Of a stretch of DNA of 64,000 nt, positions 34,728 to 52,790 are shown piece after piece. This DNA is from an uncultured bacterium (GTDB taxonomy: Bacteria; Nitrospirota; Thermodesulfovibrionia; Thermodesulfovibrionales; JdFR-86), in contig CBDVCR010000001.1 in assembly GCA_965372535.1 (NCBI GenBank), forward strand, positions 11,290 to 75,289, in the 5' to 3' direction. Under the pieces are notes generated by a model, which was not told where the DNA came from, did not search any database, and saw only the letters and a program-made list of their open reading frames with translations. The position numbers were made by a program, and so were the translations under genes. The first letter of the stretch is position 1; each line of letters starts with the position of its first letter.

Positions 34728-34830
34728 ATGATGAGTGTGATTTGTATCACGTTTTTTTTTATGGTTTTCCTTTAATTTATTAATATAGCAGATTTAATCT
34801 GCTCTGAATGCAAAGTGCAGAGGAGAAGAT

Positions 34831-35973
34831 ATGAAACACCTGACATTTCTTTTAGTGATAATATGCTTATTTATCGGAGGTGGGAAAACCTATGCAGGTG
34901 TTATCCAGGCTGCAAGTACATCCCGGGCAGACATCCAGGCGGCTATAAACTCTGCAAGTGACGGTGACATTGTAGTAGTTCCGGCAGGTATTTCTACATG
35001 GACCAGCAGGGTTACCATATCCGCTCAAATTACTCTACAGGGTGCGGGGCAGAGGAAAACTGTTATTACAAAGACGGGTGGGGATTACGCATTATATGCA
35101 AACGGAGTTGATAACTTGAGGATTACGGGATTCACGATAAGGGGTGGCAACTATTCGTCAAATGGCATCAATCTTGCTGGAAACCCAAAAGGCTTCCGCA
35201 TTGATAATAATAAGTTTACTCAATGTACCGGAAGCGCAGTTCAGATACGGGGCTATGCGAAGGGAGTAATTGACCACAACAATTTTATTGATAATCAAAA
35301 ATATGATGTTGTTATATATGGTGATAATGATGCGGGATGGCAGAGGCCGATAAATTTAGGAACAGACGAAGCTGTTTATGTCGAGGACAACTATTTTGAA
35401 CATACTAATACCCCAAGCAATGCACATTCCATAGCATCTAACCACGGTTCACGTTATGTCTTCAGGTACAATACAATTAATGACAACGGCAGTCTTAACA
35501 CGGTTCCAATCGACGCTCATGGAAATTGCTACTATGGGCGGGGAAGTGTTAGTTATGAGATTTATAATAACACTATAAATTCAGAGCATAGTTATAATGG
35601 AATGGGCATCAGGGGGGGGACAGGCGTCATATTTGGCAATACCTACATTGGCGACTTCACTAATCCGATTTATTTGACTAATTATCGGTCATGGAAAACT
35701 AATTGTTCTACGGGCGGTATAGTCTCTGCATACCCTGCTCCTGACCAAATTAATAACCTCTATATTTGGGGTAATATATACAATGAACAACCGCTAACAT
35801 CAGTTACCATAGCTTCAAGCGGTTACGCTTTTGACCATATTCAGGAAGATAGGGATTATTATTCTGAAAGACCTAGTTATACGCCATATGTATATCCACA
35901 TCCACTTACCGGTGGTGCTGATACTACTAGTCCATCTCCACCATCAAACCTGAGGATTGTGCAGTTGCAGTAG
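34831..35973 (+). CDS. secreted right-handed parallel beta-helix protein (pectate-lyase-fold; possible EPS lyase/modifier)
   Basis: Signal peptide and repeated ..I.GN.F.. beta-helix rungs. Confidence 0.6.
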   Translation: MKHLTFLLVIICLFIGGGKTYAGVIQAASTSRADIQAAINSASDGDIVVVPAGISTWTSRVTISAQITLQGAGQRKTVITKTGGDYALYANGVDNLRITGFTIRGGNYSSNGINLAGNPKGFRIDNNKFTQCTGSAVQIRGYAKGVIDHNNFIDNQKYDVVIYGDNDAGWQRPINLGTDEAVYVEDNYFEHTNTPSNAHSIASNHGSRYVFRYNTINDNGSLNTVPIDAHGNCYYGRGSVSYEIYNNTINSEHSYNGMGIRGGTGVIFGNTYIGDFTNPIYLTNYRSWKTNCSTGGIVSAYPAPDQINNLYIWGNIYNEQPLTSVTIASSGYAFDHIQEDRDYYSERPSYTPYVYPHPLTGGADTTSPSPPSNLRIVQLQ

Positions 35974-39773: not shown

Positions 39774-40694
39774 ATGAAAACCCTTAATGCTGAAGGAATT
39801 CATCTTGAGCCGCAGTCGCGAGTTACCCCAAGGAATATTTCCTTCCTGCTGTTTAATATTATTGCCCTTATGATGTTTTATCGACCAATTCACGAGTTGT
39901 TTTCAATGTCGTTGCATAATAATCTTTACTCTCACGTGGTTCTGGTGCCGCTTGTAAGCGGGTATCTGATTTATTCGAGAAGGAAGATTATATTTGAGGA
40001 CGTGAGGTATTCATTTCCAGCGGTCGCCGTTATTTTTGCCGGAATCTGTCTGTATCTTATTTGGAAAAAATCCCCTGGAAGCGTAAATCAAAACGACGCT
40101 TATTCACTCATTTCGCTTTCTTTTGTTATATTCTGGATAGGCGGATTCATATTCCTTTACGGGATTCGAGCATTCCGGCGTGCACTGTTTCCCCTTCTAT
40201 TTCTTTTCTTTATGGCGCCGATTCCTACCCTGATGGCGGATAAAATAATCTGGGTCCTGGAGAGCGGTTCAACGGAGGTCTCTTACTGGCTGTTCGAGCT
40301 TTCGGGGATTCCTTTTGCAAGAGAAGGGTTTGTGTTTCATCTCCCCGGGCTGAGCATCGAAGTGGCCGAGCAGTGCAGCGGCATCCGTTCGAGCCTTGTG
40401 CTTTTAATGTTCGGCATTTTACTGGGCAACCTCTTCTTGAAAAGCCGGTCCGGAAGATTACTCCTGATTTTAGCGGTTTTTCCCGTAACCGTGCTGAAAA
40501 ACGCCTTGCGGATTGTGATGCTTTCAGTCCTCGGGGCGTACGTCGATATAAGGATACTAGACGGCATCCTTCACCGGCGGGGGGGAGTGCCCTTTTTCGT
40601 CATAGCGCTTTCAATGCTGGTAATATTCCTTTGGGCTTTAAGGCTATCCGAAAAAAGCTTTAACGCCAGAGGTGAGACAAAATGTTTGAAATAA
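39774..40694 (+). CDS. exosortase (XrtA/EpsH-type)
   Basis: Polytopic membrane protein with the catalytic-Cys motif AEQCSGIRS. Conserved Arg (NALRIV) and His (GILHRRGG) are also present. It lies next to prsK and prsR. Confidence 0.85.
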   Translation: MKTLNAEGIHLEPQSRVTPRNISFLLFNIIALMMFYRPIHELFSMSLHNNLYSHVVLVPLVSGYLIYSRRKIIFEDVRYSFPAVAVIFAGICLYLIWKKSPGSVNQNDAYSLISLSFVIFWIGGFIFLYGIRAFRRALFPLLFLFFMAPIPTLMADKIIWVLESGSTEVSYWLFELSGIPFAREGFVFHLPGLSIEVAEQCSGIRSSLVLLMFGILLGNLFLKSRSGRLLLILAVFPVTVLKNALRIVMLSVLGAYVDIRILDGILHRRGGVPFFVIALSMLVIFLWALRLSEKSFNARGETKCLK

Positions 40695-42751
40695 CCCTGT
40701 CGGCCATATCCTCTTTTTTTCTCCTCGCCCTTTCCTTGTTCGTGATATTGAAGAAGAGGTCGGCCCCGAACGCGTCCCTTGGCGCCGTCCTGCTTTTACT
40801 TTTGGCAATCGAGCTTATGGACAGGTTTGCCCTTGTTCTTCCGGGAGAGCCCCTTGCGTTTAAAGGGGCCGCTCTTTTTTTCGAGTCGCTACTCCCTGCT
40901 GCTTTCCTGGCCTTCAGTCTCACCTATGCGCGGCAAAGGTCGGGGAACTTCCCCTCTTTTATCTGGGTTTTTCTCATGGCGTTGGCTGTCGCCTTCCCCT
41001 TGGGCGCGCTGTTTATTCCGCTCGATGATTTCTTCTATTCCCCCGACATCCGGTCGGAAAAAACGCTGTTTCTCGGTCAAGCCGGATATTGGTTTTATAC
41101 TGGGCTAATGGTCTACTGCGTCGCATCTTTAGTAAATATAGAGGCCACTTTCGCGGCCTCCTCGGGCGAGGACAGATGGAGGATGAAATTCGAAGTCGTG
41201 GGGATAAGCGCCGTTCTGGCGGTGCTTGTATTCTATTTCAGCCAGGGACTTCTGTACAGGACCATAAACATGGACCTTTTGCCGGCAAGGTCGGGGGTAA
41301 TGATACTGGCCTTCCTTCTTATAGGATATTCGAGGGCTTTCAGGGGCAATGACGTCCGGGTCGAAGTGTCAAGATACGTTGTCCATCGGTCGTTGGCGCT
41401 TCTCGTAATAGGGATATATTTTCTCGCTCTCGGGGTAATAGGCGAGGGCATGAGGTATTTGGATGTCTCTTTTGGACGCGACCTGACTATTTTCATCGCA
41501 TTTGCCGGCGCCGCCGCAGTGCTGCTCGTTCTTTTTTCCGAAAAGCTCAGGAGAAAGGCCAGGGTGATTATCAACAAGAATTTTTATGCCCAAAAGCATG
41601 ATTACAGAAACGAGTGGCTCAGGTTCACCGGCAGGCTCTCGTCCTGTAAGACGGCCGCTGACGTACAGGGCGTTATACTTGCCACATGCAGGGAGGCCCT
41701 GGACCTCAGGGGCGCTTCCCTGTACCTTGCGGCAGGAGAAAATAAATTTCTTCTCGGGGCGAACCAGGGGATGCCGGAAGAACCGCGAGAGTTTCGGGCT
41801 TCCGATGGAATGCTCGCGTATTTTATGGACCGGGGCAGGGCTTTCAGCCCCTTTGACGGAGAGTATGTCCCTGACGAAGAGGAAGCCTCTTTTGTCCGGC
41901 GCACCGGGGCGGCGTTGACAGTGCCCTTGATTGGCAACGATAAGGTCGAAGGCCTTCTGGTGTTCGGCGAACGGTTGAGCCGGGAGGAGTTTATCTATGA
42001 GGACTATGACCTCATGAAGACGCTTGCAAGGCAAGCTGCTCTTTCAATAAAGAAATTTTCGCTTTCGGAGGAGCTTGCCGAGGCAAGGGAGATGGCGGCG
42101 GTGGCGAGGATTTCCTCGTTCGTCATCCATGACCTTAAAAACCTCGCTTCCTCGCTTTCCGTGCTTTTAGACAATGCGCAGGATTACATGGATGAGCCGG
42201 ATTTTCAGAAAGACACGCTCAAGACCATCGGAAACACGGTTGCGAGGATGAAGAGCATAATGCAGAGGCTGAAGACCATACCGCAAAAGCATTCCCTGCG
42301 CCCGCAACCAGTGGACCTGGCCCTTCTCTCAAGAGAGGCGGTGGGTGAGGTCGCAAGGGTAAAACCGGGGGCGAAGTTGGTATGCCGGGGCACGAAGGCG
42401 GCGTCATCTGTTGATGTCGAGGAGATAAGAAAAGTCGTCATGAACCTGTTGCTCAATGCGGTTGAAGCGTGCAATGGAGACGGCGTCGTAAGGGTAGGCA
42501 CCGGCCGCAGCGACGGCATGGCATATGTCCGCGTGGAGGACAGCGGGTGCGGGATTGACGATGAGTTTATGAAAAACCATTTGTTCAAGCCCTTCAGGAC
42601 GACAAAGCAAAAAGGGCTTGGCATAGGGCTCTACCAGTGCAAACAGATAGCGGAGGCGCATGGCGGCAGACTGGAGGTGGAAAGCGAGGTCGGCAGGGGT
42701 TCTGTCTTTACGGTGTATCTGCCGGCCCCGGCCTCGAGGTGCACAGTGTAA
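40682..42751 (+). CDS. prsK: PEP-CTERM system histidine kinase (PrsK-like)
   Basis: 689 aa: a multi-transmembrane N-terminal half, a GAF-like region, H-box FVIHDLKN, NLLLNAVEA, DSGCGI and GLGIGLYQ. Confidence 0.85.
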   Translation: MFEITLSAISSFFLLALSLFVILKKRSAPNASLGAVLLLLLAIELMDRFALVLPGEPLAFKGAALFFESLLPAAFLAFSLTYARQRSGNFPSFIWVFLMALAVAFPLGALFIPLDDFFYSPDIRSEKTLFLGQAGYWFYTGLMVYCVASLVNIEATFAASSGEDRWRMKFEVVGISAVLAVLVFYFSQGLLYRTINMDLLPARSGVMILAFLLIGYSRAFRGNDVRVEVSRYVVHRSLALLVIGIYFLALGVIGEGMRYLDVSFGRDLTIFIAFAGAAAVLLVLFSEKLRRKARVIINKNFYAQKHDYRNEWLRFTGRLSSCKTAADVQGVILATCREALDLRGASLYLAAGENKFLLGANQGMPEEPREFRASDGMLAYFMDRGRAFSPFDGEYVPDEEEASFVRRTGAALTVPLIGNDKVEGLLVFGERLSREEFIYEDYDLMKTLARQAALSIKKFSLSEELAEAREMAAVARISSFVIHDLKNLASSLSVLLDNAQDYMDEPDFQKDTLKTIGNTVARMKSIMQRLKTIPQKHSLRPQPVDLALLSREAVGEVARVKPGAKLVCRGTKAASSVDVEEIRKVVMNLLLNAVEACNGDGVVRVGTGRSDGMAYVRVEDSGCGIDDEFMKNHLFKPFRTTKQKGLGIGLYQCKQIAEAHGGRLEVESEVGRGSVFTVYLPAPASRCTV

Positions 42752-42818
42752 TGGCGCGGACGTTTTTATGCCGCTTCGCGGCCTGCGCCTTTGCGGGAGG
42801 CCACAGGGAGACGCCGGG

Positions 42819-44282
42819 ATGGAAAAGCTCTTAATCATCGACGACAACGAAGATATCAGAAGGCAACTCAAGTGGGGCTTTGCGAAAGAGTACGAAACGC
42901 TTATGGCGAAAGACGCCGAAGAGGCGCTCGCCCTTTTCGGGAGGCACGGCCCGAAAGTCGTGACCCTCGACCTGGGGCTGCCGCCGCATGCGGATACGGT
43001 GGTCGAGGGGCTGCGGTGCCTTGAAAGAATTCTGGCCGAGCGGCCTTCGACGAAGATTGTCGTGATAACGGGCAACGAGGAGGGGGAAAACGCGCTCAGG
43101 GCCGTGCGGATGGGAGCATATGATTATTACCGGAAACCGATAGACCTCAAGGAGCTGAGGGTTATCGTCAAGAGGGCTTTCCACCTGCATGAGATCGAGC
43201 GGGAGAATCTCAGGCTTCACACGGCCATTGCCGAAGGGAAGCCCGCCGGGTTGGAAGGCATGCTGGGGCAATGCCCGGAGATGGAGGCTGTTTTCTCGAT
43301 TATCGGGAAGGTCGCCTCCTCCGCCGTCAACGTGCTGGTAGTCGGCGAAAGCGGTACGGGCAAGGAACTGGCGGCCAAGGCGATTCATGCCGGCAGCTTG
43401 AGGAACAGGGGTCCCTTCATGCCGATAAACTGCGGCGCCATCCCCGAGAACCTCCTTGAGTCCGAACTCTTCGGGCACGAAAGAGGCGCTTTCACCGGCG
43501 CGCACGCCAGGCTGCAGGGGAAGTTCGAGTACGCGCACGGAGGCACGCTCTTTTTTGACGAGATAGGCGAGCTGCCGGCGAACCTGCAGGTGAAGCTGCT
43601 CCGCTTTCTCCAGGAGAAGACCATCCAGCGGGTGGGGGGGAGGGAGGACATAGCCGTTGACGCGAGGATTATCGCCGCAACGAATATCGATATATCAAGA
43701 GCCATGAAGGAAGGCGCCTTCAGGGAGGACCTCTACTACAGGCTGGGCGTGATTACGATAAAACTTCCGCCGCTGAGGGAGAGGAAGGGAGATATCATGC
43801 TCCTTTCGAGCTTCTTTCTGCAGAGGGCCAACGCGGAGTTCAAAAAGAGGGTGAGGGGGTTCAGCCCCTCGTCGGTAGAGCTTCTTGAGTCTTGTCATTG
43901 GCCCGGCAACGTGAGGGAGCTTGAGAACAGGATTCAGAGGGCGGTCATTATGTCGGAGGCGACGGTCATTCAGCCCCAGGGCCTCGGGTTCATGGATACC
44001 CCCGCAAGGCAGGAGTCCGGGATCGCCGAGACGATGACCCTCCGGGAAGGGAGGGACAGGGTGGAGAAGGAAATGATAATCGCCGCCACCGAAAAATGCG
44101 AGGGCAACATAGCAAGGACAGCCGAAAGGCTCGGCGTAAGCAGGCCGACACTTTATGACCTAATGAAGAAACACGGTCTTTTCAGTATGCCGGTGCAGGG
44201 CCGGGACGGAGGGGGCCAGAGAAACGGGCCTGTCTCCGATGCGCCGCCCGGCGCGCGGAGCGGTTTACATCCCCTCCCTTAA
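42819..44282 (+). CDS. prsR: PEP-CTERM-box sigma-54-dependent response regulator (PrsR-like)
   Basis: The protein starts MEKLLIIDDNEDIRR. It has REC, AAA+ (GESGTGKE, GAFTGA) and Fis-type HTH domains. Confidence 0.9.
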   Translation: MEKLLIIDDNEDIRRQLKWGFAKEYETLMAKDAEEALALFGRHGPKVVTLDLGLPPHADTVVEGLRCLERILAERPSTKIVVITGNEEGENALRAVRMGAYDYYRKPIDLKELRVIVKRAFHLHEIERENLRLHTAIAEGKPAGLEGMLGQCPEMEAVFSIIGKVASSAVNVLVVGESGTGKELAAKAIHAGSLRNRGPFMPINCGAIPENLLESELFGHERGAFTGAHARLQGKFEYAHGGTLFFDEIGELPANLQVKLLRFLQEKTIQRVGGREDIAVDARIIAATNIDISRAMKEGAFREDLYYRLGVITIKLPPLRERKGDIMLLSSFFLQRANAEFKKRVRGFSPSSVELLESCHWPGNVRELENRIQRAVIMSEATVIQPQGLGFMDTPARQESGIAETMTLREGRDRVEKEMIIAATEKCEGNIARTAERLGVSRPTLYDLMKKHGLFSMPVQGRDGGGQRNGPVSDAPPGARSGLHPLP

Positions 44283-45017
44283 ATCCCTTTGCATGAAGTC
44301 CGGGCTCAGGCGTATGTGCCGGTTTTTCAGGACGGTGATTTCCTTGTCTCTCTGGAGCTTGTCGATTACCCTTGTCGCGGTCTCTCTCGTAAGGCCCGCC
44401 ATGTTCGCTATGTCCCTGTGGGTGAGCTTGAGGTCCAGCGTGACGCCCTCTCCCGTTTCCTTGCCGTACTCCTCAGCGAGCAGGCAAAACAGCATCTTCA
44501 ACCTCTGGGACGCGTTTTTGAAGTTCAGTATCTGTATCATGTCCCAGGAGTTGCGGAGACGGGCGCACAGTATCTGAAGCAGCCGATCGAGTATCTTGCT
44601 CTGGGAATGTATCAGGGAATAAAAATCGTTTTTGGAAATGACGGCGGTCAGGGTGTCTTCTATCGCAAGCACGGTGGCGGGGACCGTTTTGCCGTCAATC
44701 AAGGACATCTCGCCGAAGAATTCCCCTGTCCGGTGTATGGCCAGGATGGTCTCCTTCCCGTCCTCGCTTATCTGGATAACTTTCACCTTCCCGGACAGGA
44801 TAATATACATGTATTCGTTGGTGTCTTCCTCATAAAGTATCGTCTTGTTCTTACTGTACTGTTTAATCTTCAGTTTCGCGCTGATATGGAGCAGGTCCTG
44901 ATCCGTAAGCGAAGCGAAAATCTGTACTGGTTTCAGTCTGTCTATAACGTTTTTTTCTTCCACGTCTGTCCCTCTGGCAAGTCGGTTTTTACACGGTTTC
45001 CCATGTATTTTTTGCAA
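44265..45017 (-). CDS. Crp/Fnr-family transcription regulator
   Basis: cNMP-binding domain (FGEMSLIDG) plus a C-terminal HTH (RDIANMAGLTRETATRVIDKL). The start could be an internal GTG. Confidence 0.9.
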   Translation of the reverse strand: MQKIHGKPCKNRLARGTDVEEKNVIDRLKPVQIFASLTDQDLLHISAKLKIKQYSKNKTILYEEDTNEYMYIILSGKVKVIQISEDGKETILAIHRTGEFFGEMSLIDGKTVPATVLAIEDTLTAVISKNDFYSLIHSQSKILDRLLQILCARLRNSWDMIQILNFKNASQRLKMLFCLLAEEYGKETGEGVTLDLKLTHRDIANMAGLTRETATRVIDKLQRDKEITVLKNRHIRLSPDFMQRDLREGM

Positions 45018-45220
45018 GACCCGTGCCCAACGGCGAATTACCTTTAATCAGCCTGTTATACATGTTTTACGGGCCGTGGCATGTAAAGTAATTCGACACC
45101 TGTCGTTTAACGTTACACTCTCAATTAATCGAGTATTTCCCGCATCGCCCGTCTTTTGAGGCATCGTCCCTTCCCGGCTTTTCTCCGTTCGGCATCGCAT
45201 TCAGTCAATTCCCTGTAACT

Positions 45221-45345
45221 AAAAGAGCCGCCGGAGAAATCCTCTCTGGCGGCCCGGCGGACATAGGATAGCGTTTGCTGACATCCTTTAGTCCCGTCGC
45301 TCTGCGTCCCCGGGTTTCCCCAGGTTTGCTCTGAGCAGAGAACCT
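45221..45345 (-). promoter_or_regulatory. GEMM-I (cyclic-dinucleotide) riboswitch-like leader with intrinsic terminator, upstream of the crp-like gene
   Basis: The RNA reads ..CAGAGCAAACC-UGGG-GAAA-CCCG-GGGACGCAGAGC..GGAC-UAAA-GGAU..AUCC-UAU-GUCC.., then GCCGCCAGAGA..UCUCCGGCGGC-UCUUUU. This matches the Vc2 core GGCAAACC..GAAA..GGGACGCAAAGC. Confidence 0.75.
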
Positions 45346-45388
45346 ATGCATTAATTATTAAATAATAATAAGAACAGACAGAAAAAAA

Positions 45389-45404
45389 TGTGATTCAAAT
45401 CACA
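45389..45404 (-). promoter_or_regulatory. CRP/FNR-type box TGTGATTCAAATCACA (perfect palindrome)
   Basis: TGTGA-N6-TCACA centred about 41 bp upstream of the predicted start of the riboswitch leader, with an AT-rich -10 region between them. Confidence 0.7.
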
Positions 45405-45467
45405 TTGCGGCAGAGGGTTAAGGGCATGCAAAAACCGCGGGCTTTTTGTTGTTTGCGGAAACGGGAA

Positions 45468-46583
45468 TCAGCGGGAAAGGTAGGTGCTTATTTCGGTCGA
45501 GTAGGCGCTTTCGTTGCCCTGTGTATCGTATGCCGTTACGGCGAAATAATAGTATAAGCCGGTCGGGAGGTTCCCGACGGTGTATTGCGTTACATTTGCC
45601 ACGTCAAACGATTCGGTATAGTTGCCGGTGGAAGTTCCGTAATAGAGCCTGTAGCCCGCGAGGTCATCAAGTGGAGCGCCCTCTTCGTTGGTCGTGGGCG
45701 CATCCCAGAGAAGGGTTACCGGGCGGTGGGTTTGCAAAGGACTCGTTGCGGTACAAGCCTGGATGCCTGCGGTTGATTCGTTGCCTTCCGTATCATATGA
45801 GGTAACGGTATAGCAGTATGCTGTTGCGGGGAACAACCCCGTATCGCTGTAGACGGTGGAAGTAGAGGTTCCTGTTTCAACGCCGTCTCTGTAAACCCTG
45901 TAGCCGGCGACTCCGGAACCGTCTCCGTCCGTGGAAGGATTCCACGAGAGGTCAATCCGGCTTGAGGAAACAACTTTTGTTATCAGTCCCGTTACGGCCT
46001 CCGGAGGGGTGATGTCCAACCCGGAGCCTATTGGTTCGGTGGCAACGGGGTCTGGTTCGGAGATAACGGGGGCCGGCTCGGAGCCTATTGGTTCGGTGGG
46101 AACGGGGTCTGGTTCGGCGGGAACGGGGTCTGGCTCGGCGGGAACGGGGTCTGGCTCGGCGGGAACGGGGGTCATCATTATATTAATTATGGATTCGGTT
46201 TTTTTCTCCACGTCCACGATACCGGCATAAGGCTCATATCCGTCACCGGTTGCGGTAATGGTTATGCCTTTCCCTTTTACTATATTCTTGATAGTGTATT
46301 CTCCGTTGCCGGCCGTAATGTCCATTGCTTCGCCTATCCGGACCATGACCGCTGAAAGAGCCGTCCCGTCAACATCGGTTACAATGCCGGTGACGCTGCC
46401 GAGGACCCCATAGGCATTTCCTGTCCCATTATATAGCGAACCCTCCGCGAGTCCTCCAGGGGCGTCCTTCGCAATATTTTCGGCAAAGCCGTTTCCCGCG
46501 GCATATCCGGTTATGGACAAAACGGCCACGAAAAAGACAAGAAGATGTGGGGCGCCGTGTTTCACTGAAAATGTTTTCATCAA
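45468..46583 (-). CDS. secreted surface protein: carboxypeptidase-regulatory-like domain, Pro-rich repeat linker, two FN3 domains
   Basis: Signal peptide; GIVTDVDGTALSAVMVRIG.. domain; PVPAEPD x3 linker; two FN3-like modules (..LSWNPSTD.., ..LLWDAPTTNEEG..). Confidence 0.75.
   Translation of the reverse strand: MMKTFSVKHGAPHLLVFFVAVLSITGYAAGNGFAENIAKDAPGGLAEGSLYNGTGNAYGVLGSVTGIVTDVDGTALSAVMVRIGEAMDITAGNGEYTIKNIVKGKGITITATGDGYEPYAGIVDVEKKTESIINIMMTPVPAEPDPVPAEPDPVPAEPDPVPTEPIGSEPAPVISEPDPVATEPIGSGLDITPPEAVTGLITKVVSSSRIDLSWNPSTDGDGSGVAGYRVYRDGVETGTSTSTVYSDTGLFPATAYCYTVTSYDTEGNESTAGIQACTATSPLQTHRPVTLLWDAPTTNEEGAPLDDLAGYRLYYGTSTGNYTESFDVANVTQYTVGNLPTGLYYYFAVTAYDTQGNESAYSTEISTYLSR
46024..46173. 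repeat. in-frame tandem 21-bp repeats (about 4 copies plus diverged copies)
   Basis: Units ggytcggygggaacggggtct lie at 46090, 46111, 46132 and 46153. They encode PVPAEPD on the minus strand. Confidence 0.85.
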
Positions 46584-46668
46584 ACCTTCATGATTCCATC
46601 GAAAGGCGCGGCTTTCGGCAAAGCATAAGCGGAATGTTTTATTATTTTCCGAAACAACGGTAAAAAGA

Positions 46669-46684
46669 TGTGATTTGAATCACG
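46669..46684 (-). promoter_or_regulatory. CRP/FNR-type box TGTGATTTGAATCACG
   Basis: One mismatch from the palindrome; centred about 93 bp upstream of the ATG at 46583. Confidence 0.6.
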
Positions 46685-46826
46685 CCTCTTTCTAACGGGA
46701 CCGTTGGCAGGCCGACATATGAATGCCCCGGAATCCCTGCTCACGGGGCCTTGGAAGGATTCAACGCCGGATGAGAACCTGACCGGTTGATAATAAATCT
46801 GTACTTCAAAGGGTGTTATGTGAATC

Positions 46827-46852
46827 GGGCGGACCCCTTCCGGGGTCCGCCC
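46827..46852 (-). terminator. strong GC hairpin downstream of the FN3/PKD gene
   Basis: gggcggacccc-ttcc-ggggtccgccc. No clear U-tract follows. Confidence 0.4.
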
Positions 46853-46876
46853 GTTGCGTGACCGGCCAAGAAGATA

Positions 46877-48745
46877 TTACCCGCGTGCCTTCTCGTGTCT
46901 GTTCCTTTTCCGGTGCGCTATCAGGAACATGACGATGCCCGCAAGGACAATAATGCCGCCTAAGGAGGCCCTGGGAAACTTTATTCCATAGACAATCGGC
47001 GCAAGCGCCCGCCTAGTGGCGACCCTCAGCGCTTCGTGTCTTGAGATAAAGTCCGCCGCCTGCGGAGACAGCCTGTAGTAGGCGGCCACGAACGCCCTGC
47101 CCGGAAGGCTGCCAAGCAGGTATTCGTCCCTGAATTTCCTGAGCACCACTACATCGGGAGCCAGGGAGCTTCCGTAAGCGGCGGTTGCTATGAAGCATGC
47201 ATACGGGGAGGGGATTGTCGAATCCATGGAACCGGGTGGAGTCACGTCGGTGCCTGTGCCTCCCTGGTCTTGTCCCGGGTCCGCTGAAACGGTAATAACC
47301 GTCTCGCCGCTTGCCGATGCTCCGCCGTCGTCCGTAAACCGGACTTTTGCCGTGAAGGTGCCGGGGGTCTGATAGGTATGAGAGACGGGGCTTGCGGCGG
47401 TCTGGGCGTCGAAAACTCCGTTTCCGTCAAAGTCCCACTCGTACAGGACTATCTTTCCGTCGGGGTCCGAGACCACGGTGGAAAAAACCACCGTTAACGG
47501 CGCTGTTCCCGCATTGGGCGAGGTTTTGACCGAGGAGACGACCGGAGGTTCGTTCAGCGCGGAGGTTGCCGTTATCGTCACCGGAGGCGATATGGTCGAG
47601 GCCCCGCCGTTGTCCGTGATTTTCAGGCGCACGTTGCAGGCGCCTTCGTTTGAATATATATGGGACGCGCTCGATACCGCGCCCGTGTTCTCATCGAATG
47701 TGCCGTCGCCGTCAAAGTCCCACTCGAAGGCGACGACGGCGCCGTCGGGGTCCGATGCCTGTGCCGTAAAGTCCACGAGGAGGGGGACGGTCCCGGTCGC
47801 GGGGGCTGCTGAAAAAGCGGTTATCACGGGGGAGAGGTTCGATGTCGTGAAAGAGTGTTCCGCCGACATGGCCTCGTTGCCCGCTGCGTCGGCGGACCTG
47901 ACCCTGAAGACGTAGGTGGTAAAGCTCGAAAGCCCCGTAATCTCCACGGAATGCATGGTGACCGGGTCGGAAACAAGTGGGGTGATGCTCCCGTAAGCTG
48001 AGGCAAGGCCGTGTTCGACCCTGGAGGACGAGGGCTCGTCGGTCGTCCAGGAGATAATCGCCGAAGAGTCTGTAATGCTTGCGGTCTGTACCGCGGTTAT
48101 TACCGGAGGCGTCGTATCCAGCGGGTCGGACGTGGTGAAGGTATGGGTTTCCGAGACTGCCGCGTTGCCTGCGGCGTCGGCGCTCAGTACCCGGTAGTAG
48201 TACTGTGTTGAAGGCGAAAGGCCGCTTACGCCCTGGGAGTGGGTGGTGACAGGCGAAGGGTCGAGGGCGGTGGAGCTTCCGAGGGCGAGGGTTGCGCCGT
48301 ATTCCACACGGGTGTCGGAAGCCTCGTCAGTGGTCCAGTTTATGGTCGCGCTCTCGACGGTAACGTCCCCGGCGTAGACCCCGGAAATCACCGGGGCGGA
48401 GGTATCCGCGGTTGCCGGGGTCATACTGGCCTCGTTTGAGTACGCGCTTTCATTGCCCGCCGAGTCGTAAGCACTGGTCGCGAAATAGTAGGTGAGGCCG
48501 TTTGTGAGGCCGGTGACCCGGTAGGTTGTCACTTTTCCAACGTCTATGCTCGACGAATAACCGCCGCTTGCGGCGCCGTAGTACACCCTGAAGCCCGCAA
48601 GGTCGCCCAGCGCCGTGCCGTCCTCGTTAGTTGTGGGCGCGTCCCAGGCAAGGGTGGCCTCGCCAGCGAACGCGGAGGCGACTAAAACAAAGGTCAAAAA
48701 GACAATCAAACAAACTGTTGCTGTACTTTTTCCGTTTCTTTTCAA
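46877..48745 (-). CDS. large secreted FN3/PKD-repeat surface protein with a C-terminal CFIATAAYGS-type sorting-like domain
   Basis: The TTG start at 48745 follows a GGGGAGGA RBS. A signal peptide is followed by FN3 modules and two PKD-like modules (..FDGDG[TV]FD..). The tail is ACFIATAAYGS..LRKFRDEYL.. plus a transmembrane helix and HRKRNRHEKARG. Confidence 0.8.
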   Translation of the reverse strand: MKRNGKSTATVCLIVFLTFVLVASAFAGEATLAWDAPTTNEDGTALGDLAGFRVYYGAASGGYSSSIDVGKVTTYRVTGLTNGLTYYFATSAYDSAGNESAYSNEASMTPATADTSAPVISGVYAGDVTVESATINWTTDEASDTRVEYGATLALGSSTALDPSPVTTHSQGVSGLSPSTQYYYRVLSADAAGNAAVSETHTFTTSDPLDTTPPVITAVQTASITDSSAIISWTTDEPSSSRVEHGLASAYGSITPLVSDPVTMHSVEITGLSSFTTYVFRVRSADAAGNEAMSAEHSFTTSNLSPVITAFSAAPATGTVPLLVDFTAQASDPDGAVVAFEWDFDGDGTFDENTGAVSSASHIYSNEGACNVRLKITDNGGASTISPPVTITATSALNEPPVVSSVKTSPNAGTAPLTVVFSTVVSDPDGKIVLYEWDFDGNGVFDAQTAASPVSHTYQTPGTFTAKVRFTDDGGASASGETVITVSADPGQDQGGTGTDVTPPGSMDSTIPSPYACFIATAAYGSSLAPDVVVLRKFRDEYLLGSLPGRAFVAAYYRLSPQAADFISRHEALRVATRRALAPIVYGIKFPRASLGGIIVLAGIVMFLIAHRKRNRHEKARG

Positions 48746-48764
48746 GATATCCTCCCCTTTCAAC

Positions 48765-48893
48765 AAAAAAAGCCGCCAGAGAAATATCTCTGGCGGCACG
48801 GCGGGCATGGGACAGCTTATCTCCGGGCCGTCCTTTAGCCCCGTTGCTCTGCGTCCCCGGGTTTCCCCGGGTTTGCTCTGAGCAGAGAAGAAC
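48765..48893 (-). promoter_or_regulatory. GEMM-I (cyclic-dinucleotide) riboswitch-like leader with intrinsic terminator, upstream of the FN3/PKD gene
   Basis: It has the same architecture as 45221-45345, with compensatory base-pair changes. The terminator GCCGCCAGAGA..UCUCUGGCGGC-U7 ends about 20 nt before the RBS. Confidence 0.8.
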
Positions 48894-48941
48894 CGTTGTT
48901 TTCCGTTCTGTGTTAATTTAAACGAACCGGATGGAAAAAAC

Positions 48942-48957
48942 TGTAATTCAAATCACA
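48942..48957 (-). promoter_or_regulatory. CRP/FNR-type box TGTAATTCAAATCACA
   Basis: One mismatch; centred about 41 bp upstream of the predicted leader start. Confidence 0.65.
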
Positions 48958-49038: not shown

Positions 49039-51318
49039 TCAGGGAGGGGGCTGCCGGGATTTCAGGGCTTTTTCGAGGGCCTTGACGACCGAAGGGTCGT
49101 AGATTGTGCACGAGCCCTTTTTTATTTCCTGCAGTGCTTCTTTCTTTGTGAATTTTTTCCCGTACGGCCTTTCCCTCGTCATTGCCGAGAATGCGTCGAT
49201 AACGGAGATGGCCCGTGAAATGAGGGGTATTTCCTCCCCCCTCAGACCGTCCGGATAGCCCGAGCCGTCGTACCTTTCATGGTGGTGGAGTATGGCGTCC
49301 CTGGCTTTTTCGGAAAACTCAAAGTCGTCCAGCAGGGTTACGGTCGTGTACGGATGGACCCTTAGGGTGCGGGCCTCGGCGGGAGAGAGTTTGGTGCTCT
49401 TCTCAAGAATGCTTTGGTCGATAAACATAAGCCCGAGGTCGTATATCATGGAGACGTAAACCGCGAGGGCCTTTTCCCCCTCCTCGACTCCGAGGTCGTC
49501 CATGACGTCCGAGATAAGGTCAGGGAACAACTTCTTCTTTTTATGGTATCTCTTTTCGGCGTCAAGGAGGCCCTGGAAGGACGTGATGAACTGTTTGAAA
49601 TCATATTCCACGGGGCCGTCCATGGAGAACTTTTCGAAAAAATGCGAAACCCTTTCGACCACCTCGAGGGCGATATAAAGGTCGCGGACCGTGAAGGGGG
49701 ATGAGGTCCTCTTGTTGTTGAGGTTGAGCACCCCTATTGCCTTGTCCCGCAGCTTTATAGGCACTGAAATAAGGGATTTCGTGTTGTACCGCGGATTGTT
49801 CTTCCTTCCGAAACGCGGGTCGCTCTCTATGTCTTCTATGAGCAGTGGTCTGCCCTCGATGGCAACCCACCCGGAAATCCTGTCGCTGAACCGTATTCTC
49901 GTCCGCTTTATGACGTCTTCGGAAAGCCCCATGGCCCCCTTAATCGTAAGTTCCCCCGACAGGTCGTCGCTGAGCATGATGGAACAGACGTTGACGTCGA
50001 GCAGGTCCGAGATGAACTCGATGAACAGTTCCATGGCGGTGTTGACGACGGCCTCCCTTTTTTCCCTTTTTCCTTTTGGGATTGTCAGGGTGACGTGGAA
50101 TTTGTCGTTAATGTTTTGCGCTGTCATTTCCCACCTGTGAAACTCCGCCACCTTCCGGGCAAGGTAGAAGTTCAGGCCCTCCCGGGGATGGTCCGACTGG
50201 AAGATGTATCCTGTTGTGGCGAGGTAGGGCAGTATCGCCTCGGGCATCTTTCTGGGGACGACCAAATCCACGTCTATGAAATTGTTCTCGTGGATGCTCA
50301 GGTCAATTGCGTCTCCGGTCTCAAGGTGGTGGCTGAGGCCCTCCATGAGGTTCAGAAAGAACTGGGCGAGCCTGGTCTTGTCGGCAGCGATGTACGATAT
50401 GTCCTTTTTGATGTCCGTTTCGAGCCTCAGGTCCTTTTTCGCGAGCAAGGAGTTCAGCATCCTGGAGTTTACGAGCTCCTCTATGAGGTCGGCGAGGTTC
50501 ACAACCGTCTTTCTTACCGCCCTCGTTTCGTCGTCAAGCCTGAGGAAATCAAGCAGGTTTTCGACGATGGAGACAAGCTTCGTTGTCTCGTCGCCGATGA
50601 TGTCGCGATATTCCCTCTGGTCGCTCGGGGGCATGTCCCCGGTCTGCTGCAAATAGTATATGGCCCCGCTGATTGAATTGAGCGGCGTCCGGAGCTCATG
50701 AGAGACATGGGTTACGAATTCGGTTTTTACGACGTCGCTCTCGATGAGTTTCTTATTCATCTCCTCAAGCTCCGCGGCCTTCGCCTTGAGCTGTTTCATC
50801 AAAAACGCGTTTTCCAGGGCGATGGCCGCCTGGTTCGCTATGATCTTAACCAGGTCGAATTCGTCTTCCGTAAAAGCTTTCTCGTCCTTCTTGTCGTTGA
50901 TGTTGATGACGCCGAGCAGCCTGCTCTTGCTTATCAGCGGGCATGAGATGAACGATTTTGTCCTGAAACGCTCTCTTGTTTCCCCCGGGAACAGGTCGCT
51001 TTCCTCGATGTTTTCGACAAGGACGGGAACGCGGTTTTTCGCCACCATGCCGGCAATCCCCTTGCCTATCTCTGTTCTGCTGCTTCTGATTTGCGGGCCG
51101 CTAACGCCTCTTGAGACAAAGACGTACAGTTCGTCCCGCTCGCTGAGAAGCATCAGGGAGCCTTTTTCGGCGTTGGCGTAGTTCAGGGCGGACTCCAGCA
51201 TGAGGTTGGCGATGGCGCTTACGTTGTCCGTGGCGACTATGGCGCTCGTGGTTTCCTGAAGTATGCAGAACTTCTTCTCGAAAAGCTCCGGATTTTGCAT
51301 AAGGCAATTATAATTCAT
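49039..51318 (-). CDS. GAF - HisKA - degenerate HATPase - GAF - HD-GYP multidomain signalling protein (cyclic-dinucleotide phosphodiesterase candidate)
   Basis: H-box FVTHVSHELRTPLNSISG is present. The kinase ATP-lid region lacks the DxGxG and GxGxG boxes. The C-terminus has HHHERYDGSGYPDGL (HD-GYP). Confidence 0.8.
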   Translation of the reverse strand: MNYNCLMQNPELFEKKFCILQETTSAIVATDNVSAIANLMLESALNYANAEKGSLMLLSERDELYVFVSRGVSGPQIRSSRTEIGKGIAGMVAKNRVPVLVENIEESDLFPGETRERFRTKSFISCPLISKSRLLGVININDKKDEKAFTEDEFDLVKIIANQAAIALENAFLMKQLKAKAAELEEMNKKLIESDVVKTEFVTHVSHELRTPLNSISGAIYYLQQTGDMPPSDQREYRDIIGDETTKLVSIVENLLDFLRLDDETRAVRKTVVNLADLIEELVNSRMLNSLLAKKDLRLETDIKKDISYIAADKTRLAQFFLNLMEGLSHHLETGDAIDLSIHENNFIDVDLVVPRKMPEAILPYLATTGYIFQSDHPREGLNFYLARKVAEFHRWEMTAQNINDKFHVTLTIPKGKREKREAVVNTAMELFIEFISDLLDVNVCSIMLSDDLSGELTIKGAMGLSEDVIKRTRIRFSDRISGWVAIEGRPLLIEDIESDPRFGRKNNPRYNTKSLISVPIKLRDKAIGVLNLNNKRTSSPFTVRDLYIALEVVERVSHFFEKFSMDGPVEYDFKQFITSFQGLLDAEKRYHKKKKLFPDLISDVMDDLGVEEGEKALAVYVSMIYDLGLMFIDQSILEKSTKLSPAEARTLRVHPYTTVTLLDDFEFSEKARDAILHHHERYDGSGYPDGLRGEEIPLISRAISVIDAFSAMTRERPYGKKFTKKEALQEIKKGSCTIYDPSVVKALEKALKSRQPPP

Positions 51319-51809
51319 TTCGTACCACGATTTTTATATATTTATTGGGATCCAAGTAATAATTAAGCAATAATTATGCCTTTTGCGTACAACCTGTAAA
51401 AAAGAATTTTCTTTTTTTTCAAGCAGGTATGGACGGCAAGGAGGAGAGGGACGCGGCCCGCCTAATAAGTGTTAACCAGGCCGACTTTCAGTGTCGCATG
51501 TGTTTACAGCCTGGGTTCCGGAAGAGCCGGAAACATTTCGAAGGGGAGCCTTTCGAACGGACGCGTTCCAGGCTAACAACAACCCTCATGGTCTGACAGA
51601 CTCTTCATAACTGTATGCTTCTTTTTCCCTTTCAACCGGGTATGGGCATGAAACGGCACTTATAGGACAAGGGCGCGTCCCTCGATGCGGGCGCGTTGTG
51701 CGTACCGCTTCGAGTAAGTCTTCCCTTGTCGTTTAACGTCCCGTTTTATCGCGTGGACGCATTTCGGCGTGCTTGGAAAACCCCGCCTTTCGGGCCGGCA
51801 TGAGCGTTT

Positions 51810-51837
51810 GCTTTACCCCCATGCGAGGGGGTAAAGC
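51810..51837. repeat. perfect 11-bp-stem hairpin next to the IS110 remnant
   Basis: gctttaccccc-atgcga-gggggtaaagc. Confidence 0.6.
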
Positions 51838-51851
51838 AACTGTGATGGATG

Positions 51852-52790
<939 letters not shown>

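What the first reader, a model, noticed from the sequence alone, without database searches (positions are those of the whole stretch)
44265..48957. A compact Crp-like regulon: three near-perfect TGTGA-N6-TCACA boxes next to the regulator gene, two stacked with riboswitches
The boxes are 45389-45404 (TGTGATTCAAATCACA, perfect), 46669-46684 (TGTGATTTGAATCACG) and 48942-48957 (TGTAATTCAAATCACA). All share the TTCAAA/TTTGAA spacer and an upstream A-run. Each sits upstream of one of three consecutive minus-strand units: the crp-like gene itself, the FN3 protein gene and the FN3/PKD protein gene. For the two riboswitch-containing units the box centre is about 41 bp upstream of where the leader must begin, which is a class II activator position. 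Transcription initiation would then depend on the Crp-like protein (with autoregulation) and elongation on a cyclic dinucleotide, forming a two-input AND gate for surface-protein expression. Some Crp-family proteins bind c-di-GMP themselves, so both layers could read related signals.
Basis: partly seen in the sequence, partly recalled or inferred. Interest (0 to 1): 0.7.

Follow-up and report, generated by a model that had tools for sequence, protein, structure and literature searches.

The report
Crp-type operator boxes stacked with riboswitches
A local Crp-family regulator in an uncultured Nitrospirota bacterium appears to switch on secreted surface-protein genes from conserved binding boxes, and at two of them (including its own gene) a cyclic-dinucleotide riboswitch adds a second checkpoint. 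Relatives keep the same box-plus-riboswitch design, but each part is of a known kind.

Summary
The three boxes sit at the stated coordinates.

Comparison with 80 genomic loci and about 19 metagenomic contigs gives these results:
- The conserved core is GTGATT-N2-AATCAC.
- Sites are almost all intergenic.
- A TAnnnT -10-like hexamer lies 21-22 nt downstream of the box in 35 of 36 intergenic sites, and no -35 element is present. This is class II geometry, centred near -41.5.
- The box precedes 22 of 26 GEMM-I aptamers (19 separate units) at a fixed distance.

The neighbouring regulator keeps the CRP recognition helix (R-E-x-x-x-R). It lacks the cAMP-contacting Arg/Ser, so its effector is unknown.

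Both boxed riboswitches in the window carry A at the G20-equivalent position, as cGAMP-type GEMM-Ib riboswitches do. Their terminator shares a strand with P1, which predicts an ON switch. The AND-gate reading is therefore supported for the FN3/PKD gene and for the regulator gene. The box-riboswitch-crp order recurs in a relative whose Crp is 67% identical, and the riboswitch-crp part in one at 94%.

Binding, transcription starts and ligands are inferred, not shown. Each component is of a known kind, and V. cholerae gbpA is a precedent. Most relatives use an OFF-type variant aptamer (RF03167).

The parts
45389..45404 (-). Box 1, TGTGATTTGAATCACA (perfect palindrome). Predicted operator of the Crp-like regulator.
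   Evidence: 22.8 bits
45362..45367 (-). -10-like hexamer TATTAT, 21 nt downstream of box 1. Predicted start near 45355.
45245..45340 (-). c-di-GMP-I (GEMM-I) aptamer with A at the G20-equivalent position
   Evidence: 60.9 bits, gathering score 35
45217..45254 (-). Expression platform: terminator-like hairpin GGCCGCCAGAGAGG..CTCCGGCGGC followed by TCTTTTAGTT. Its 5' arm includes the aptamer's 3' P1 strand.
   Evidence: inference
45013..45028 (-). Candidate sigma-54 -24/-12 element GGGCACGGGTCTTGCA, 49 nt upstream of the crp start codon
   Evidence: kept in L085. Weak evidence.
44265..44963 (-). Crp/Fnr-family regulator gene, 232 aa. GTG start preceded by AGAGGGA.
46669..46684 (-). Box 2, CGTGATTCAAATCACA in the direction of transcription
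   Evidence: 22.6 bits
46641..46646 (-). -10-like hexamer AATAAT, 22 nt downstream of box 2
   Evidence: read from the sequence
45468..46580 (-). Secreted FN3-domain protein gene with no riboswitch
48942..48957 (-). Box 3, TGTGATTTGAATTACA in the direction of transcription
   Evidence: 18.4 bits
48915..48920 (-). -10-like hexamer TAAATT, 21 nt downstream of box 3. Predicted start near 48908.
48789..48887 (-). c-di-GMP-I (GEMM-I) aptamer with A at the G20-equivalent position
   Evidence: 63.7 bits
48762..48797 (-). Intrinsic terminator GCCGCCAGAGA-TATT-TCTCTGGCGGC plus T7 (-23.7 kcal/mol). Its 5' arm contains the P1 3' strand CAGAGA, which predicts an ON switch.
46877..48745 (-). Secreted FN3/PKD protein gene with a CFI-box-CTERM sorting domain. 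Likely TTG start at 48745 after GGAGGA.
34736..34751 (+).
   Evidence: 19.5 bits
34773..34778 (+). -10-like hexamer TAATTT, 21 nt downstream of box 4
34831..35973 (+). Secreted right-handed beta-helix protein gene inside the EPS cluster

Best explanation
The 16-bp boxes, with conserved core GTGATT-N2-AATCAC, are the DNA operators of the adjacent Crp/Fnr-family regulator (44265-44963, minus strand).

**Promoter mechanism.** Each box sits 21-22 bp upstream of a -10-like hexamer at a promoter with no -35 element. That places its centre near -41.5/-42.5, which is the class II arrangement. A dimer of the regulator, once it has bound its still unknown effector, would recruit sigma-70 RNA polymerase.

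**Targets in the window.** There are four promoters:
- a beta-helix protein gene in the EPS cluster (box 4);
- an FN3 protein gene (box 2);
- an FN3/PKD/CFI-box-CTERM protein gene (box 3);
- a leader that runs into the regulator gene itself (box 1).

**Riboswitch layer.** At boxes 1 and 3 the transcript starts about 15-20 nt before a GEMM-I aptamer. The P1 3' strand of that aptamer is also the 5' arm of an intrinsic terminator. Without ligand, transcription stops. With a bound cyclic dinucleotide it reads through. The ligand could be c-di-GMP or, given the A at the G20-equivalent position, 3',3'-cGAMP.

**Predicted logic.** The FN3/PKD gene needs both the active regulator and the dinucleotide. 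The regulator gene sits in a positive feedback loop gated by the dinucleotide.

**Shown:** the motif, its enrichment, its conservation, its fixed geometry, the aptamers, and the regulator's domains and recognition helix.

**Inferred:** binding, activation, transcription starts, ON logic, ligand identity, and read-through into crp.
For: **Motif is real.**
- 5 hits against 0.7 expected in the window.
- 28 against about 3 expected for hits with at most 1 mismatch around orthologues.
- 44 against 5 expected at 14 bits or more, and 31 against 1.3 expected at 16 bits or more.
- 36 of 44 sites are intergenic in sequence that is 86% coding.

**Selection acts on the box itself.** Box columns carry 1.6-1.7 bits each and the flanks carry 0.1-0.2 bits.

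**Geometry.**
- TAnnnT lies at 21 nt in 22 sites and at 22 nt in 13 sites after the box, against a background of about 2 per offset.
- 33 of 35 promoters match TTGACA at 3 of 6 positions or fewer.

**Riboswitch stacking.**
- 22 of 26 aptamers have the box upstream. The distance from box to aptamer is 59-67 nt in 12 units, 90-101 nt in 6 units, and 117 nt in one.
- A separate metagenome scan, which required box and A20-type aptamer together, returned about 19 further units.

**Regulator.**
- It has cNMP_binding and HTH_Crp_2/Crp domains.
- T-R-E-T-x-T-R is invariant in 25 homologues and in homologues only 46% identical.
- The helix aligns to E. coli CRP S-R-E-T-V-G-R.
- It is the only Crp-family gene in the window.
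- Boxes cluster near the gene: 11 of 40 lie within 500 nt, while only 6.7% of the flanking sequence does.

**Link to crp.**
- L087 (Crp 67% identical) has a perfect box, then 22 nt, then TATCCT, then an A20 aptamer, then crp.
- L085 (94% identical) has the same riboswitch-spacer-crp order. The contig ends before the position where the box would be.

**ON platform.** The terminator arm overlaps P1.

**Targets are coherent.** They are secreted proteins, mostly FN3 proteins starting ATLSWDxPTTNADGTPL.
Against: - No binding, transcript or ligand data exist for any of these organisms.
- Only 33 of 79 orthologous loci show a strong box within the sequence held.
- Only 3 of about 14 metagenomic units with at least 1 kb of upstream flank have the regulator nearby. 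The regulator-operator link therefore rests on proximity and the recognition helix, not on strict co-occurrence.
- The recognition helix never varies, so no covariation test between helix and motif was possible.
- About 250 nt separate the box 1 riboswitch terminator from crp. That stretch holds a sigma-54-like element, so crp may be transcribed mainly from its own promoter.
- A box overlapping the -35 region would also fit repression.
- The closest relative with a long contig (L081, Crp 75% identical) has no box or recognisable aptamer upstream of crp.
Confidence: 0.7

Rival explanations
1. The regulator binds the boxes but acts as a repressor or operator-blocker. The site overlaps the -35 region, so binding would occlude RNA polymerase. 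This could apply especially at its own gene as negative autoregulation.
For: The box covers -49 to -34 relative to the predicted start. Autoregulated Crp/Fnr-family genes are often repressed by their own product (general knowledge).
Against: 33 of 35 promoters have no usable -35 hexamer. Without an activator they should be weak. The spacing is fixed at exactly the class II distance; simple occlusion would not obviously require such precise spacing.
Confidence: 0.12
2. The boxes are real operators, but a different Crp/Fnr paralogue encoded elsewhere in the genome binds them. The neighbouring gene is only a target.
For: Many box-riboswitch units in metagenomic contigs have no Crp homologue within several kb. 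46 of 79 orthologous loci have no strong box in the flanks held.
Against: Boxes are about four-fold enriched within 500 nt of this gene. The protein family keeps an invariant CRP-type R-E-x-x-x-R helix that matches a GTGA half-site. The pairing persists down to 46% protein identity. The window holds no other Crp-family gene.
Confidence: 0.12
3. The boxes are weak intrinsic terminators or RNA hairpins at the ends of the upstream genes: an A/U-rich palindrome followed by a U-run.
For: In the window every box is followed by T5-T9 in the direction of transcription and lies downstream of a co-oriented gene.
Against: As RNA the hairpins are worth only -5.1 to -6.6 kcal/mol, against -23.7 for the riboswitch terminator. 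The terminator scan did not list them. The arms are conserved in sequence (GTGAT/ATCAC), not merely in pairing. The T-run is absent in relatives. The fixed 21-22 nt distance to a -10-like hexamer has no meaning for a terminator.
Confidence: 0.03
4. The boxes look alike only because the promoter-riboswitch cassettes are recent duplicates. No selection acts on the palindrome.
For: [quoted passage not shown]
Against: Boxes 2 and 4 have no riboswitch. Sequence between the box and the -10, and upstream of the box, is not conserved even within the window. The same core recurs in dozens of distant genomes with unrelated flanks.
Confidence: 0.02

Closest known systems
E. coli CRP (CAP) and FNR class II promoters, with the site centred at -41.5
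   Same: A homodimeric Crp/Fnr-family protein. A 16-bp palindrome with GTGA-N6-TCAC half-sites. The R-E-x-x-x-R recognition helix. The site overlaps a missing -35, 21-22 bp upstream of the -10.
   Different: The effector domain lacks the cAMP-contacting Arg82/Ser83, which are V94/P95 here (one search gives the same replacement against 7pza). There is no FNR-type N-terminal Cys cluster. The protein scores 89 bits against a cut-off of 266 for the CRP equivalog. The motif adds conserved inner T/A positions (GTGATT..AATCAC), and the outer T/A of TGTGA...TCACA is not conserved. The regulator appears to have few, locally clustered targets in the sequence examined. It is not obviously a global one.
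Vibrio cholerae gbpA: a cAMP-CRP-dependent promoter with the Vc1 c-di-GMP-I riboswitch in the leader (Kariisa et al. 2015, PMC4545359)
   Same: A CRP-family activator acts at the promoter. A GEMM-I aptamer sits in the 5' leader of a gene for a secreted surface or colonisation factor. Two nucleotide signals converge on one gene.
   Different: In gbpA the activator is the global cAMP-CRP and this is a single case. In that study the c-di-GMP effect on transcription was independent of Vc1. Here the pairing is a conserved module across a lineage, involves a regulator whose targets cluster locally, and includes the regulator's own gene.
Geobacter GEMM-Ib (3',3'-cGAMP) riboswitches (Kellenberger 2015 and Nelson 2015, as summarised in PMC6140456 and PMC8835794)
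   Same: A replaces G at the G20-equivalent position. The expression platform is terminator-based, and here the sequence predicts an ON switch. In the window the downstream genes encode surface or extracellular proteins.
   Different: The ligand is untested. Some natural A20 aptamers bind both ligands (PMC6140456). The phylum differs (Nitrospirota). No cGAMP synthase was identified in the window.
Rfam RF03167, the c-di-GMP-I-GGC variant aptamer
   Same: The aptamers behind the same box in most related loci score above this family's gathering score.
   Different: The window's own boxed aptamers are RF01051 with A20, not this variant. The variant units carry a conserved anti-terminator, which predicts OFF logic. 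As far as I recall, the variant's ligand has not been established; the source paper could not be read.
Crp-like regulators that respond to c-di-GMP, such as Xanthomonas Clp and Burkholderia Bcam1349 (from my own knowledge)
   Same: A Crp-family fold, no cAMP dependence, and control of exopolysaccharide or biofilm genes.
   Different: Nothing here tests c-di-GMP binding. No specific sequence relationship to those proteins was examined.

Membership tests
Crp/Fnr transcription factor family | N-terminal cNMP-binding-type beta-roll domain | tested here: met
   PF00027, E = 8.3e-25, 87 bits against a cut-off of 27.5
Crp/Fnr transcription factor family | C-terminal Crp-type helix-turn-helix | tested here: met
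   PF13545 at 47.7 bits and PF00325 at 36.5 bits. The protein aligns over 186 residues to E. coli CRP.
CRP proper (cAMP receptor protein) | Recognition helix R180-E181-x-x-x-R185, which reads GTGA | tested here: met
   T-R-E-T-A-T-R aligns with S-R-E-T-V-G-R. It is invariant in 25 homologues.
CRP proper (cAMP receptor protein) | Arg82/Ser83 of the phosphate-binding cassette, which contact cAMP | tested here: not met
   They align to V94/P95. The same replacement is seen against 7pza. The family consensus is K-T-x-P-A-T-V.
CRP proper (cAMP receptor protein) | NCBIfam equivalog score | tested here: not met
   NF008732 scores 89.4 bits against a cut-off of 266
FNR | N-terminal cysteine cluster for the [4Fe-4S] centre | tested here: not met
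   The alignment has no N-terminal Cys motif. The only invariant Cys is C133 in the central helix. NF008365 scores 68.8 bits against a cut-off of 228.
Class II Crp/Fnr-dependent promoter | Operator centred near -41.5 relative to the transcription start | tested here: inconclusive
   No start site is mapped. The proxy is met: a -10-like TAnnnT lies 21-22 nt after the box at 35 of 36 intergenic sites.
Class II Crp/Fnr-dependent promoter | Weak or absent -35 hexamer | tested here: met
   33 of 35 oriented promoters match TTGACA at 3 of 6 positions or fewer
Class II Crp/Fnr-dependent promoter | Regulator binds the site and activates transcription | not testable with these tools
   Needs EMSA or footprinting and reporter or in vitro transcription assays
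c-di-GMP-I riboswitch (RF01051) | Covariance-model score above the gathering threshold | tested here: met
   63.7 and 60.9 bits against 35
c-di-GMP-I riboswitch (RF01051) | Expression platform coupled to the aptamer | tested here: met
   A terminator follows directly after each aptamer, and its 5' arm contains the P1 3' strand
GEMM-Ib (cGAMP) riboswitch | Adenine at the position equivalent to Vc2 G20 | tested here: met
   Model position 11 is A in both boxed aptamers. The criterion comes from PMC6140456.
GEMM-Ib (cGAMP) riboswitch | Selective binding of 3',3'-cGAMP over c-di-GMP | not testable with these tools
   Some natural A20 aptamers bind both ligands (PMC6140456). In-line probing or ITC is needed.
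Intrinsic terminator (rival reading of the boxes) | Stable G+C-rich stem followed by a U-run | tested here: not met
   The hairpins are worth -5.1 to -6.6 kcal/mol. The terminator scan did not report them.

The most novel reading that the evidence does not exclude
The Crp-like protein, which lacks the cAMP-contacting residues, might itself sense a cyclic dinucleotide or a related signal. Its own gene sits behind its own operator and an A20-type ON riboswitch. Together these would form a dinucleotide-gated positive-feedback (bistable) switch that commits the cell to producing matrix proteins. The A20 aptamers would then point to 3',3'-cGAMP signalling in Nitrospirota, outside the Geobacter lineage where it was described. 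The conserved box would also give a handle on the ligand of the orphan c-di-GMP-I-GGC variant.
Probability: 0.15. Interest if true: 0.75.

Novelty: new member of a known kind. Interest (0 to 1): 0.5.

Why it matters
- **A first regulon prediction for a large protein family.** The search returned 945 homologues at E <= 0.001. Of the 120 best, all at least 60% identical, those that carry an organism name are Nitrospirota. The prediction covers operator, promoter geometry and target class for uncultured sulfate-reducing or groundwater Thermodesulfovibrionia, where no genetics exists.
- **A recurrent design, not a one-off.** A protein activator at the promoter and a cyclic-dinucleotide riboswitch in the leader are wired in series across this lineage. 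Evolution has flipped the riboswitch sign, giving ON in this subclade and OFF in most relatives, while keeping the operator.
- **Experimental leads.** It gives concrete promoters and leaders for testing A20 and GGC-variant aptamer specificity. It also links a Crp-type regulator to the exosortase/EPS matrix locus alongside PrsK/PrsR.

Tried and rejected
1. **Terminator reading of the boxes.** Rejected because the hairpins are weak, the arms are conserved in sequence rather than only in pairing, and the T-run is not conserved in relatives.
2. **Box as the PrsR enhancer site of a sigma-54 promoter.** Rejected. I saw no GG-N10-GC element between box 3 and its aptamer on reading the sequence. The box occurs in loci without PrsR. 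The described PrsR-regulated promoters are a motif 1 plus a -24/-12 element (PMC1569441).
3. **A conserved sigma-54 promoter upstream of crp in all orthologues.** Not found. Only the window, L085 and perhaps L084 have one. In the window as a whole the pattern is not enriched, at 20 hits against 14 expected.
4. **A conserved small ORF in the 190-250 nt spacer between the riboswitch terminator and crp.** The window and L087 spacers encode unrelated peptides when read by eye.
5. **Regex search for aptamers.** It missed the GGTAAAC/GGCAC variants. A covariance model replaced it.
6. **Covariation between recognition helix and motif.** Impossible, because the helix is invariant down to 46% identity.
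7. **Closest long relative.** L081-L083 (Crp 75% identical) have no box upstream of crp.
8. **Source paper for the RF03167 variant.** Weinberg et al. 2017 could not be fetched. No paper links Thermodesulfovibrio with c-di-GMP riboswitches.
9. **L022.** Its 13 pattern hits lie at closely spaced intervals between 3316 and 6115. I took them to be a repetitive coding region, without checking, and excluded the locus from the statistics.


Full report
**Observation**

TGTGA-N6-TCACA with at most one mismatch occurs 5 times in the 64-kb window against 0.70 expected, and none of 100 shuffles reached 5. One of the two extra hits, 34736-34751 (TGTGATTTGTATCACG), has the same layout as the reported three. 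In the direction of the downstream gene it is followed by a T-run and an A/T-rich stretch. The shared TTCAAA/TTTGAA centre and the A-run (a T-run on the transcribed strand) are real.

**Context**

The window is an exopolysaccharide/exosortase locus of a Nitrospirota (Thermodesulfovibrionia) bacterium. The genes are as follows:

| Coordinates | Product |
|---|---|
| 31258 | Wzy |
| 32597 and 33600 | glycosyltransferases |
| 34831-35973 | beta-helix protein |
| 36131 | flippase |
| 37911 | epimerase |
| 39774 | exosortase |
| 40682-42751 | PrsK |
| 42660-44282 | PrsR |
| 44265-44963(-) | Crp-family gene |
| 45468-46580(-) | FN3 protein |
| 46877-48745(-) | FN3/PKD protein with CFI-box-CTERM domain |
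| 49039-51318(-) | GAF-HisKA-HD(GYP-type) protein |

- Rfam finds four c-di-GMP-I aptamers. Two lie directly downstream of boxes 1 and 3, at 45245-45340(-) and 48789-48887(-).
- The other two aptamers, at 58788 and 63633, have no box. The box is therefore not simply part of every riboswitch.

**The regulator**

- Its likely start is the GTG at 44963, preceded by AGAGGGA.
- The search returned 945 homologues at E <= 0.001. The 120 listed are at least 60% identical, and every one that carries an organism name is annotated as Nitrospirota.
- In an alignment of 25 homologues the helix-turn-helix T-R-E-T-x-T-R is invariant.
- BLASTP against E. coli CRP aligns this helix to S-R-E-T-V-G-R. That is the R180/E181/R185 triad which reads GTGA (the role of the triad is textbook knowledge).
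- The same alignment puts V94/P95 opposite the cAMP-contacting R82/S83. One search gives the same replacement against 7pza. The family consensus is K-T-x-P-A-T-V. cAMP is therefore an unlikely effector.
- There is no FNR-type cysteine cluster. All NCBIfam equivalogs score far below their cut-offs.

**Comparative test of the boxes**

I fetched 80 loci from one-genome-per-species contigs that encode an orthologue. All but a few records are labelled Nitrospirota or Thermodesulfovibrionia.

- TGTGAT-N4-ATCACA with at most 1 mismatch occurs 28 times against about 3 in block shuffles of 1.2 Mb.
- A symmetrised weight matrix from 19 sites shows the true core is GTGATT-N2-AATCAC. Core positions carry 1.6-1.7 bits each.
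- The outer T and A of the classical TGTGA...TCACA and all flanking columns carry about 0.1-0.2 bits. Selection therefore acts on the palindrome itself and not on a duplicated cassette.
- With the matrix, 44 sites score at least 14 bits against 5 expected, and 31 score at least 16 bits against 1.3 expected.
- 36 of the 44 sites are intergenic although 86% of the sequence is coding by a crude ORF call.
- 11 of 40 sites lie within 500 nt of the regulator gene, while only 6.7% of the flanking sequence does.

**Promoter geometry**

Counting TAnnnT hexamers at every offset after the 16-bp box gives a sharp peak: 22 sites at 21 nt and 13 at 22 nt, against a background of about 2 per offset.

The four window boxes fit (sequence read):

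| Box | -10-like hexamer | Offset (nt) |
|---|---|---|
| 1 | TATTAT | 21 |
| 2 | AATAAT | 22 |
| 3 | TAAATT | 21 |
| 4 | TAATTT | 21 |

With a start about 7 nt after the hexamer, the box centre falls at -41.5/-42.5. The position where a -35 would lie matches TTGACA at 3 of 6 or fewer in 33 of 35 oriented promoters. This is the signature of activator-dependent class II promoters.

**Stacking with riboswitches**

I built a covariance model from 12 aptamers. It found 26 aptamers in the window plus the 80 loci.

- 22 aptamers, forming 19 independent units once tandems are merged, have a GTGAT-N4-ATCAC box upstream at a fixed distance. Box start to aptamer start is 59-67 nt in 12 units. It is 90-101 nt in 6 units that carry an extra 5' hairpin, and 117 nt in one.
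- A separate scan of metagenome contigs for box, N50-80, then CAGAGCAAACC returned 27 contigs. About 19 are genuine box-plus-aptamer units with the same -10 spacing.
- Three of those have a homologue 46% identical immediately upstream, with the same T-R-E-T-V-T-R helix.
- Downstream genes are overwhelmingly secreted proteins. Most are FN3 proteins that begin, after the signal peptide, with ATLSWDxPTTNADGTPLxDLAGY, as do the window's FN3/PKD protein and others.
- The remaining targets are beta-helix proteins, one GH18-like protein (judged from its sequence only), and, divergent from crp in five loci, an RpoD-like sigma factor.

**Riboswitch logic**

Both boxed aptamers in the window have A at model position 11, the base just 5' of the G-C pair that precedes AAAC. 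This is the Vc2 G20-equivalent. The G-to-A change marks the cGAMP-sensing GEMM-Ib class, and some natural A20 aptamers bind both ligands (PMC6140456; PMC8835794).

At 48762-48797 a strong terminator (GCCGCCAGAGA/TCTCTGGCGGC plus T7, -23.7 kcal/mol) uses as its 5' arm the CAGAGA that pairs with the 5' UCUCUG to close P1. A similar but weaker arrangement follows the 45245-45340 aptamer. A ligand-stabilised P1 should therefore prevent termination, giving an ON switch. This is inferred from the sequence.

Most relatives are wired differently:
- Rfam classifies their aptamers as the variant RF03167, c-di-GMP-I-GGC.
- Their 3' tail GAAACAG-N-GCUU is complementary to the terminator's 5' arm AAGCCUGUUUC.
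- This gives a predicted anti-terminator of -11.6 to -19.1 kcal/mol in all 15 cases folded. That is the layout of an OFF switch.
- L040, L054 and L071 carry this variant in tandem with a canonical c-di-GMP-I aptamer (Rfam checked for L054 and L071).

The operator is therefore conserved while the sign, and perhaps the ligand, of the RNA layer differs between subclades.

**Is crp part of the box 1 unit?**

About 250 nt separate the box 1 terminator from the GTG of crp, and no further terminator was found there.

- L085 (Crp 94% identical) has the same riboswitch-spacer-crp order, but the contig ends before the box position.
- L087 (67% identical) has a perfect box TGTGATTAGAATCACA, then 22 nt, then TATCCT, then an A20 aptamer with an ON-type terminator, then about 190 nt, then crp.

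This supports riboswitch-gated positive autoregulation in this subclade. Two cautions apply:
- The spacer holds a near-consensus sigma-54 element, GGGCACGGGTCTTGCA (45013-45028), 49 nt before the start codon. It is retained in L085. PrsR, a sigma-54 activator, is encoded convergently next door, and PrsR-regulated promoters are of the -24/-12 type (PMC1569441).
- L081-L083 (75% identical) have neither box nor clear aptamer upstream of crp.

**Rivals**

- The terminator reading fails on hairpin stability (-5.1 to -6.6 kcal/mol). It also fails on sequence rather than structural conservation, on the absence of the T-run in relatives, and on the fixed -10 spacing.
- Repression rather than activation cannot be excluded, but the missing -35 makes it less likely.
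- A different paralogue as the binder cannot be excluded, because full genomes were not available. Proximity, the matching recognition helix and persistence of the pairing to 46% identity favour the neighbouring gene.

**Comparison with known systems and novelty**

- Mechanistically this is a class II Crp/Fnr-type regulon combined with GEMM-I riboswitches. Both are well known.
- The combination has a precedent at V. cholerae gbpA (PMC4545359).
- I found no description of this regulator subfamily, its operator, or its systematic pairing with cyclic-dinucleotide riboswitches. A search for Thermodesulfovibrio with c-di-GMP and riboswitch found no paper.
- I rate it a new member of a known kind and of moderate interest. 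The most notable points are the conserved series wiring of a protein activator and an RNA switch, the riboswitch in front of the regulator's own gene, and the flip between ON and OFF platforms behind one operator.

Noticed in passing
window 34736-34751 (+), gene 34831-35973: A fourth strong box with T9 and a TAATTT hexamer 21 nt downstream. It lies upstream of a secreted beta-helix protein gene inside the EPS gene cluster.
   Followed up: yes
window 45013-45028 (-): A near-consensus sigma-54 -24/-12 element, GGGCACGGGTCTTGCA, sits 49 nt upstream of the crp start codon. It lies between the riboswitch terminator and crp and is retained in L085. The PrsK/PrsR genes (a sigma-54 activator system) are adjacent. 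This suggests a PrsR to Crp-like to FN3 cascade.
   Followed up: partly
window 45245-45340, 48789-48887, 58788-58871: Three of the four GEMM-I aptamers in the window have A at the G20-equivalent position (cGAMP-type GEMM-Ib signature). The fourth (63633-63708) has G. No cGAMP synthase was looked for.
   Followed up: partly
L011, L019, L024, L028, L030, L031, L039, L040, L044, L050, L052, L054, L055, L057, L071 (aptamer coordinates): Behind the same box, most relatives carry GGTAAAC-type aptamers. Rfam places the four tested (L030, L031, L054, L071) in the variant RF03167, c-di-GMP-I-GGC. These units have a conserved anti-terminator, GAAACAG.GCUU pairing with AAGCCUGUUUC, which predicts OFF logic. 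As far as I know the variant's ligand is not established.
   Followed up: partly
L040 16576-16835; L054 3470-3723; L071 4583-4837: Tandem arrangement: a GGC-type variant aptamer with its own terminator, followed by a canonical c-di-GMP-I aptamer with what looks like a translational platform. All lie behind one Crp-type box.
   Followed up: no
window 34790-34802; L001 ~14971-14983; L044 ~14871-14881; L057 ~10456-10466; L040 ~16529-16549; L054 ~3428-3444: A short hairpin lies right after the predicted transcription start (CAGATTTAATCTG in the window). In L040 and L054 the sequence differs but the pairing is kept, which suggests a 5'-terminal RNA stem-loop. In the riboswitch leaders it is followed by a conserved GATCTTTGAA.
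   Followed up: no
window 49039-51318 (-); L081 7374-9617; L082 5002-7245: A GAF-HisKA-GAF-HD(GYP-type) protein is syntenic with the Crp-like gene and lies directly upstream of it in the relatives that are 75% identical. It could be a phosphodiesterase for the riboswitch ligand.
   Followed up: no
window 58748-58774 (+): A sigma-54-like TGGCACGCAACTTGTA (the -12 GC is replaced by GT) sits immediately upstream of the unboxed riboswitch at 58788. That riboswitch precedes a 1003-aa transglutaminase-like protein gene.
   Followed up: no
window 51908-52552 (-), and 51300-52850 generally: An IS110-family transposase fragment (Transposase_20 plus a partial DEDD_Tnp_IS110) lies in a stretch of about 1.5 kb with no other called gene. 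It sits between the GAF-HK-HD gene and an argininosuccinate lyase gene. It is probably a decayed insertion sequence.
   Followed up: no
L020 9552; L059 6209; L065 4718; L067 1411; L074 9899: In five loci the box next to crp is oriented, judging by its -10-like hexamer TAATCT or TAATGT, toward a divergent RpoD-like sigma-70 gene and not toward crp.
   Followed up: partly
window 46826-46856 (-): A strong G+C-rich hairpin, GGGCGGACCCC-GGAA-GGGGTCCGCCC, lies just after the stop codon of the FN3/PKD gene with no U-run. It may be a transcript-stabilising or Rho-related element that separates the two FN3 units.
   Followed up: no
Crp-like protein, alignment A1: Invariant residues of unknown role lie in the sensor domain: E45, D47 and T48 within the conserved E-E-D-T stretch, M52, Y53, H77, T93, P95, A96, and a single invariant Cys (C133) in the central helix. 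They may define the pocket for the unknown effector.
   Followed up: no
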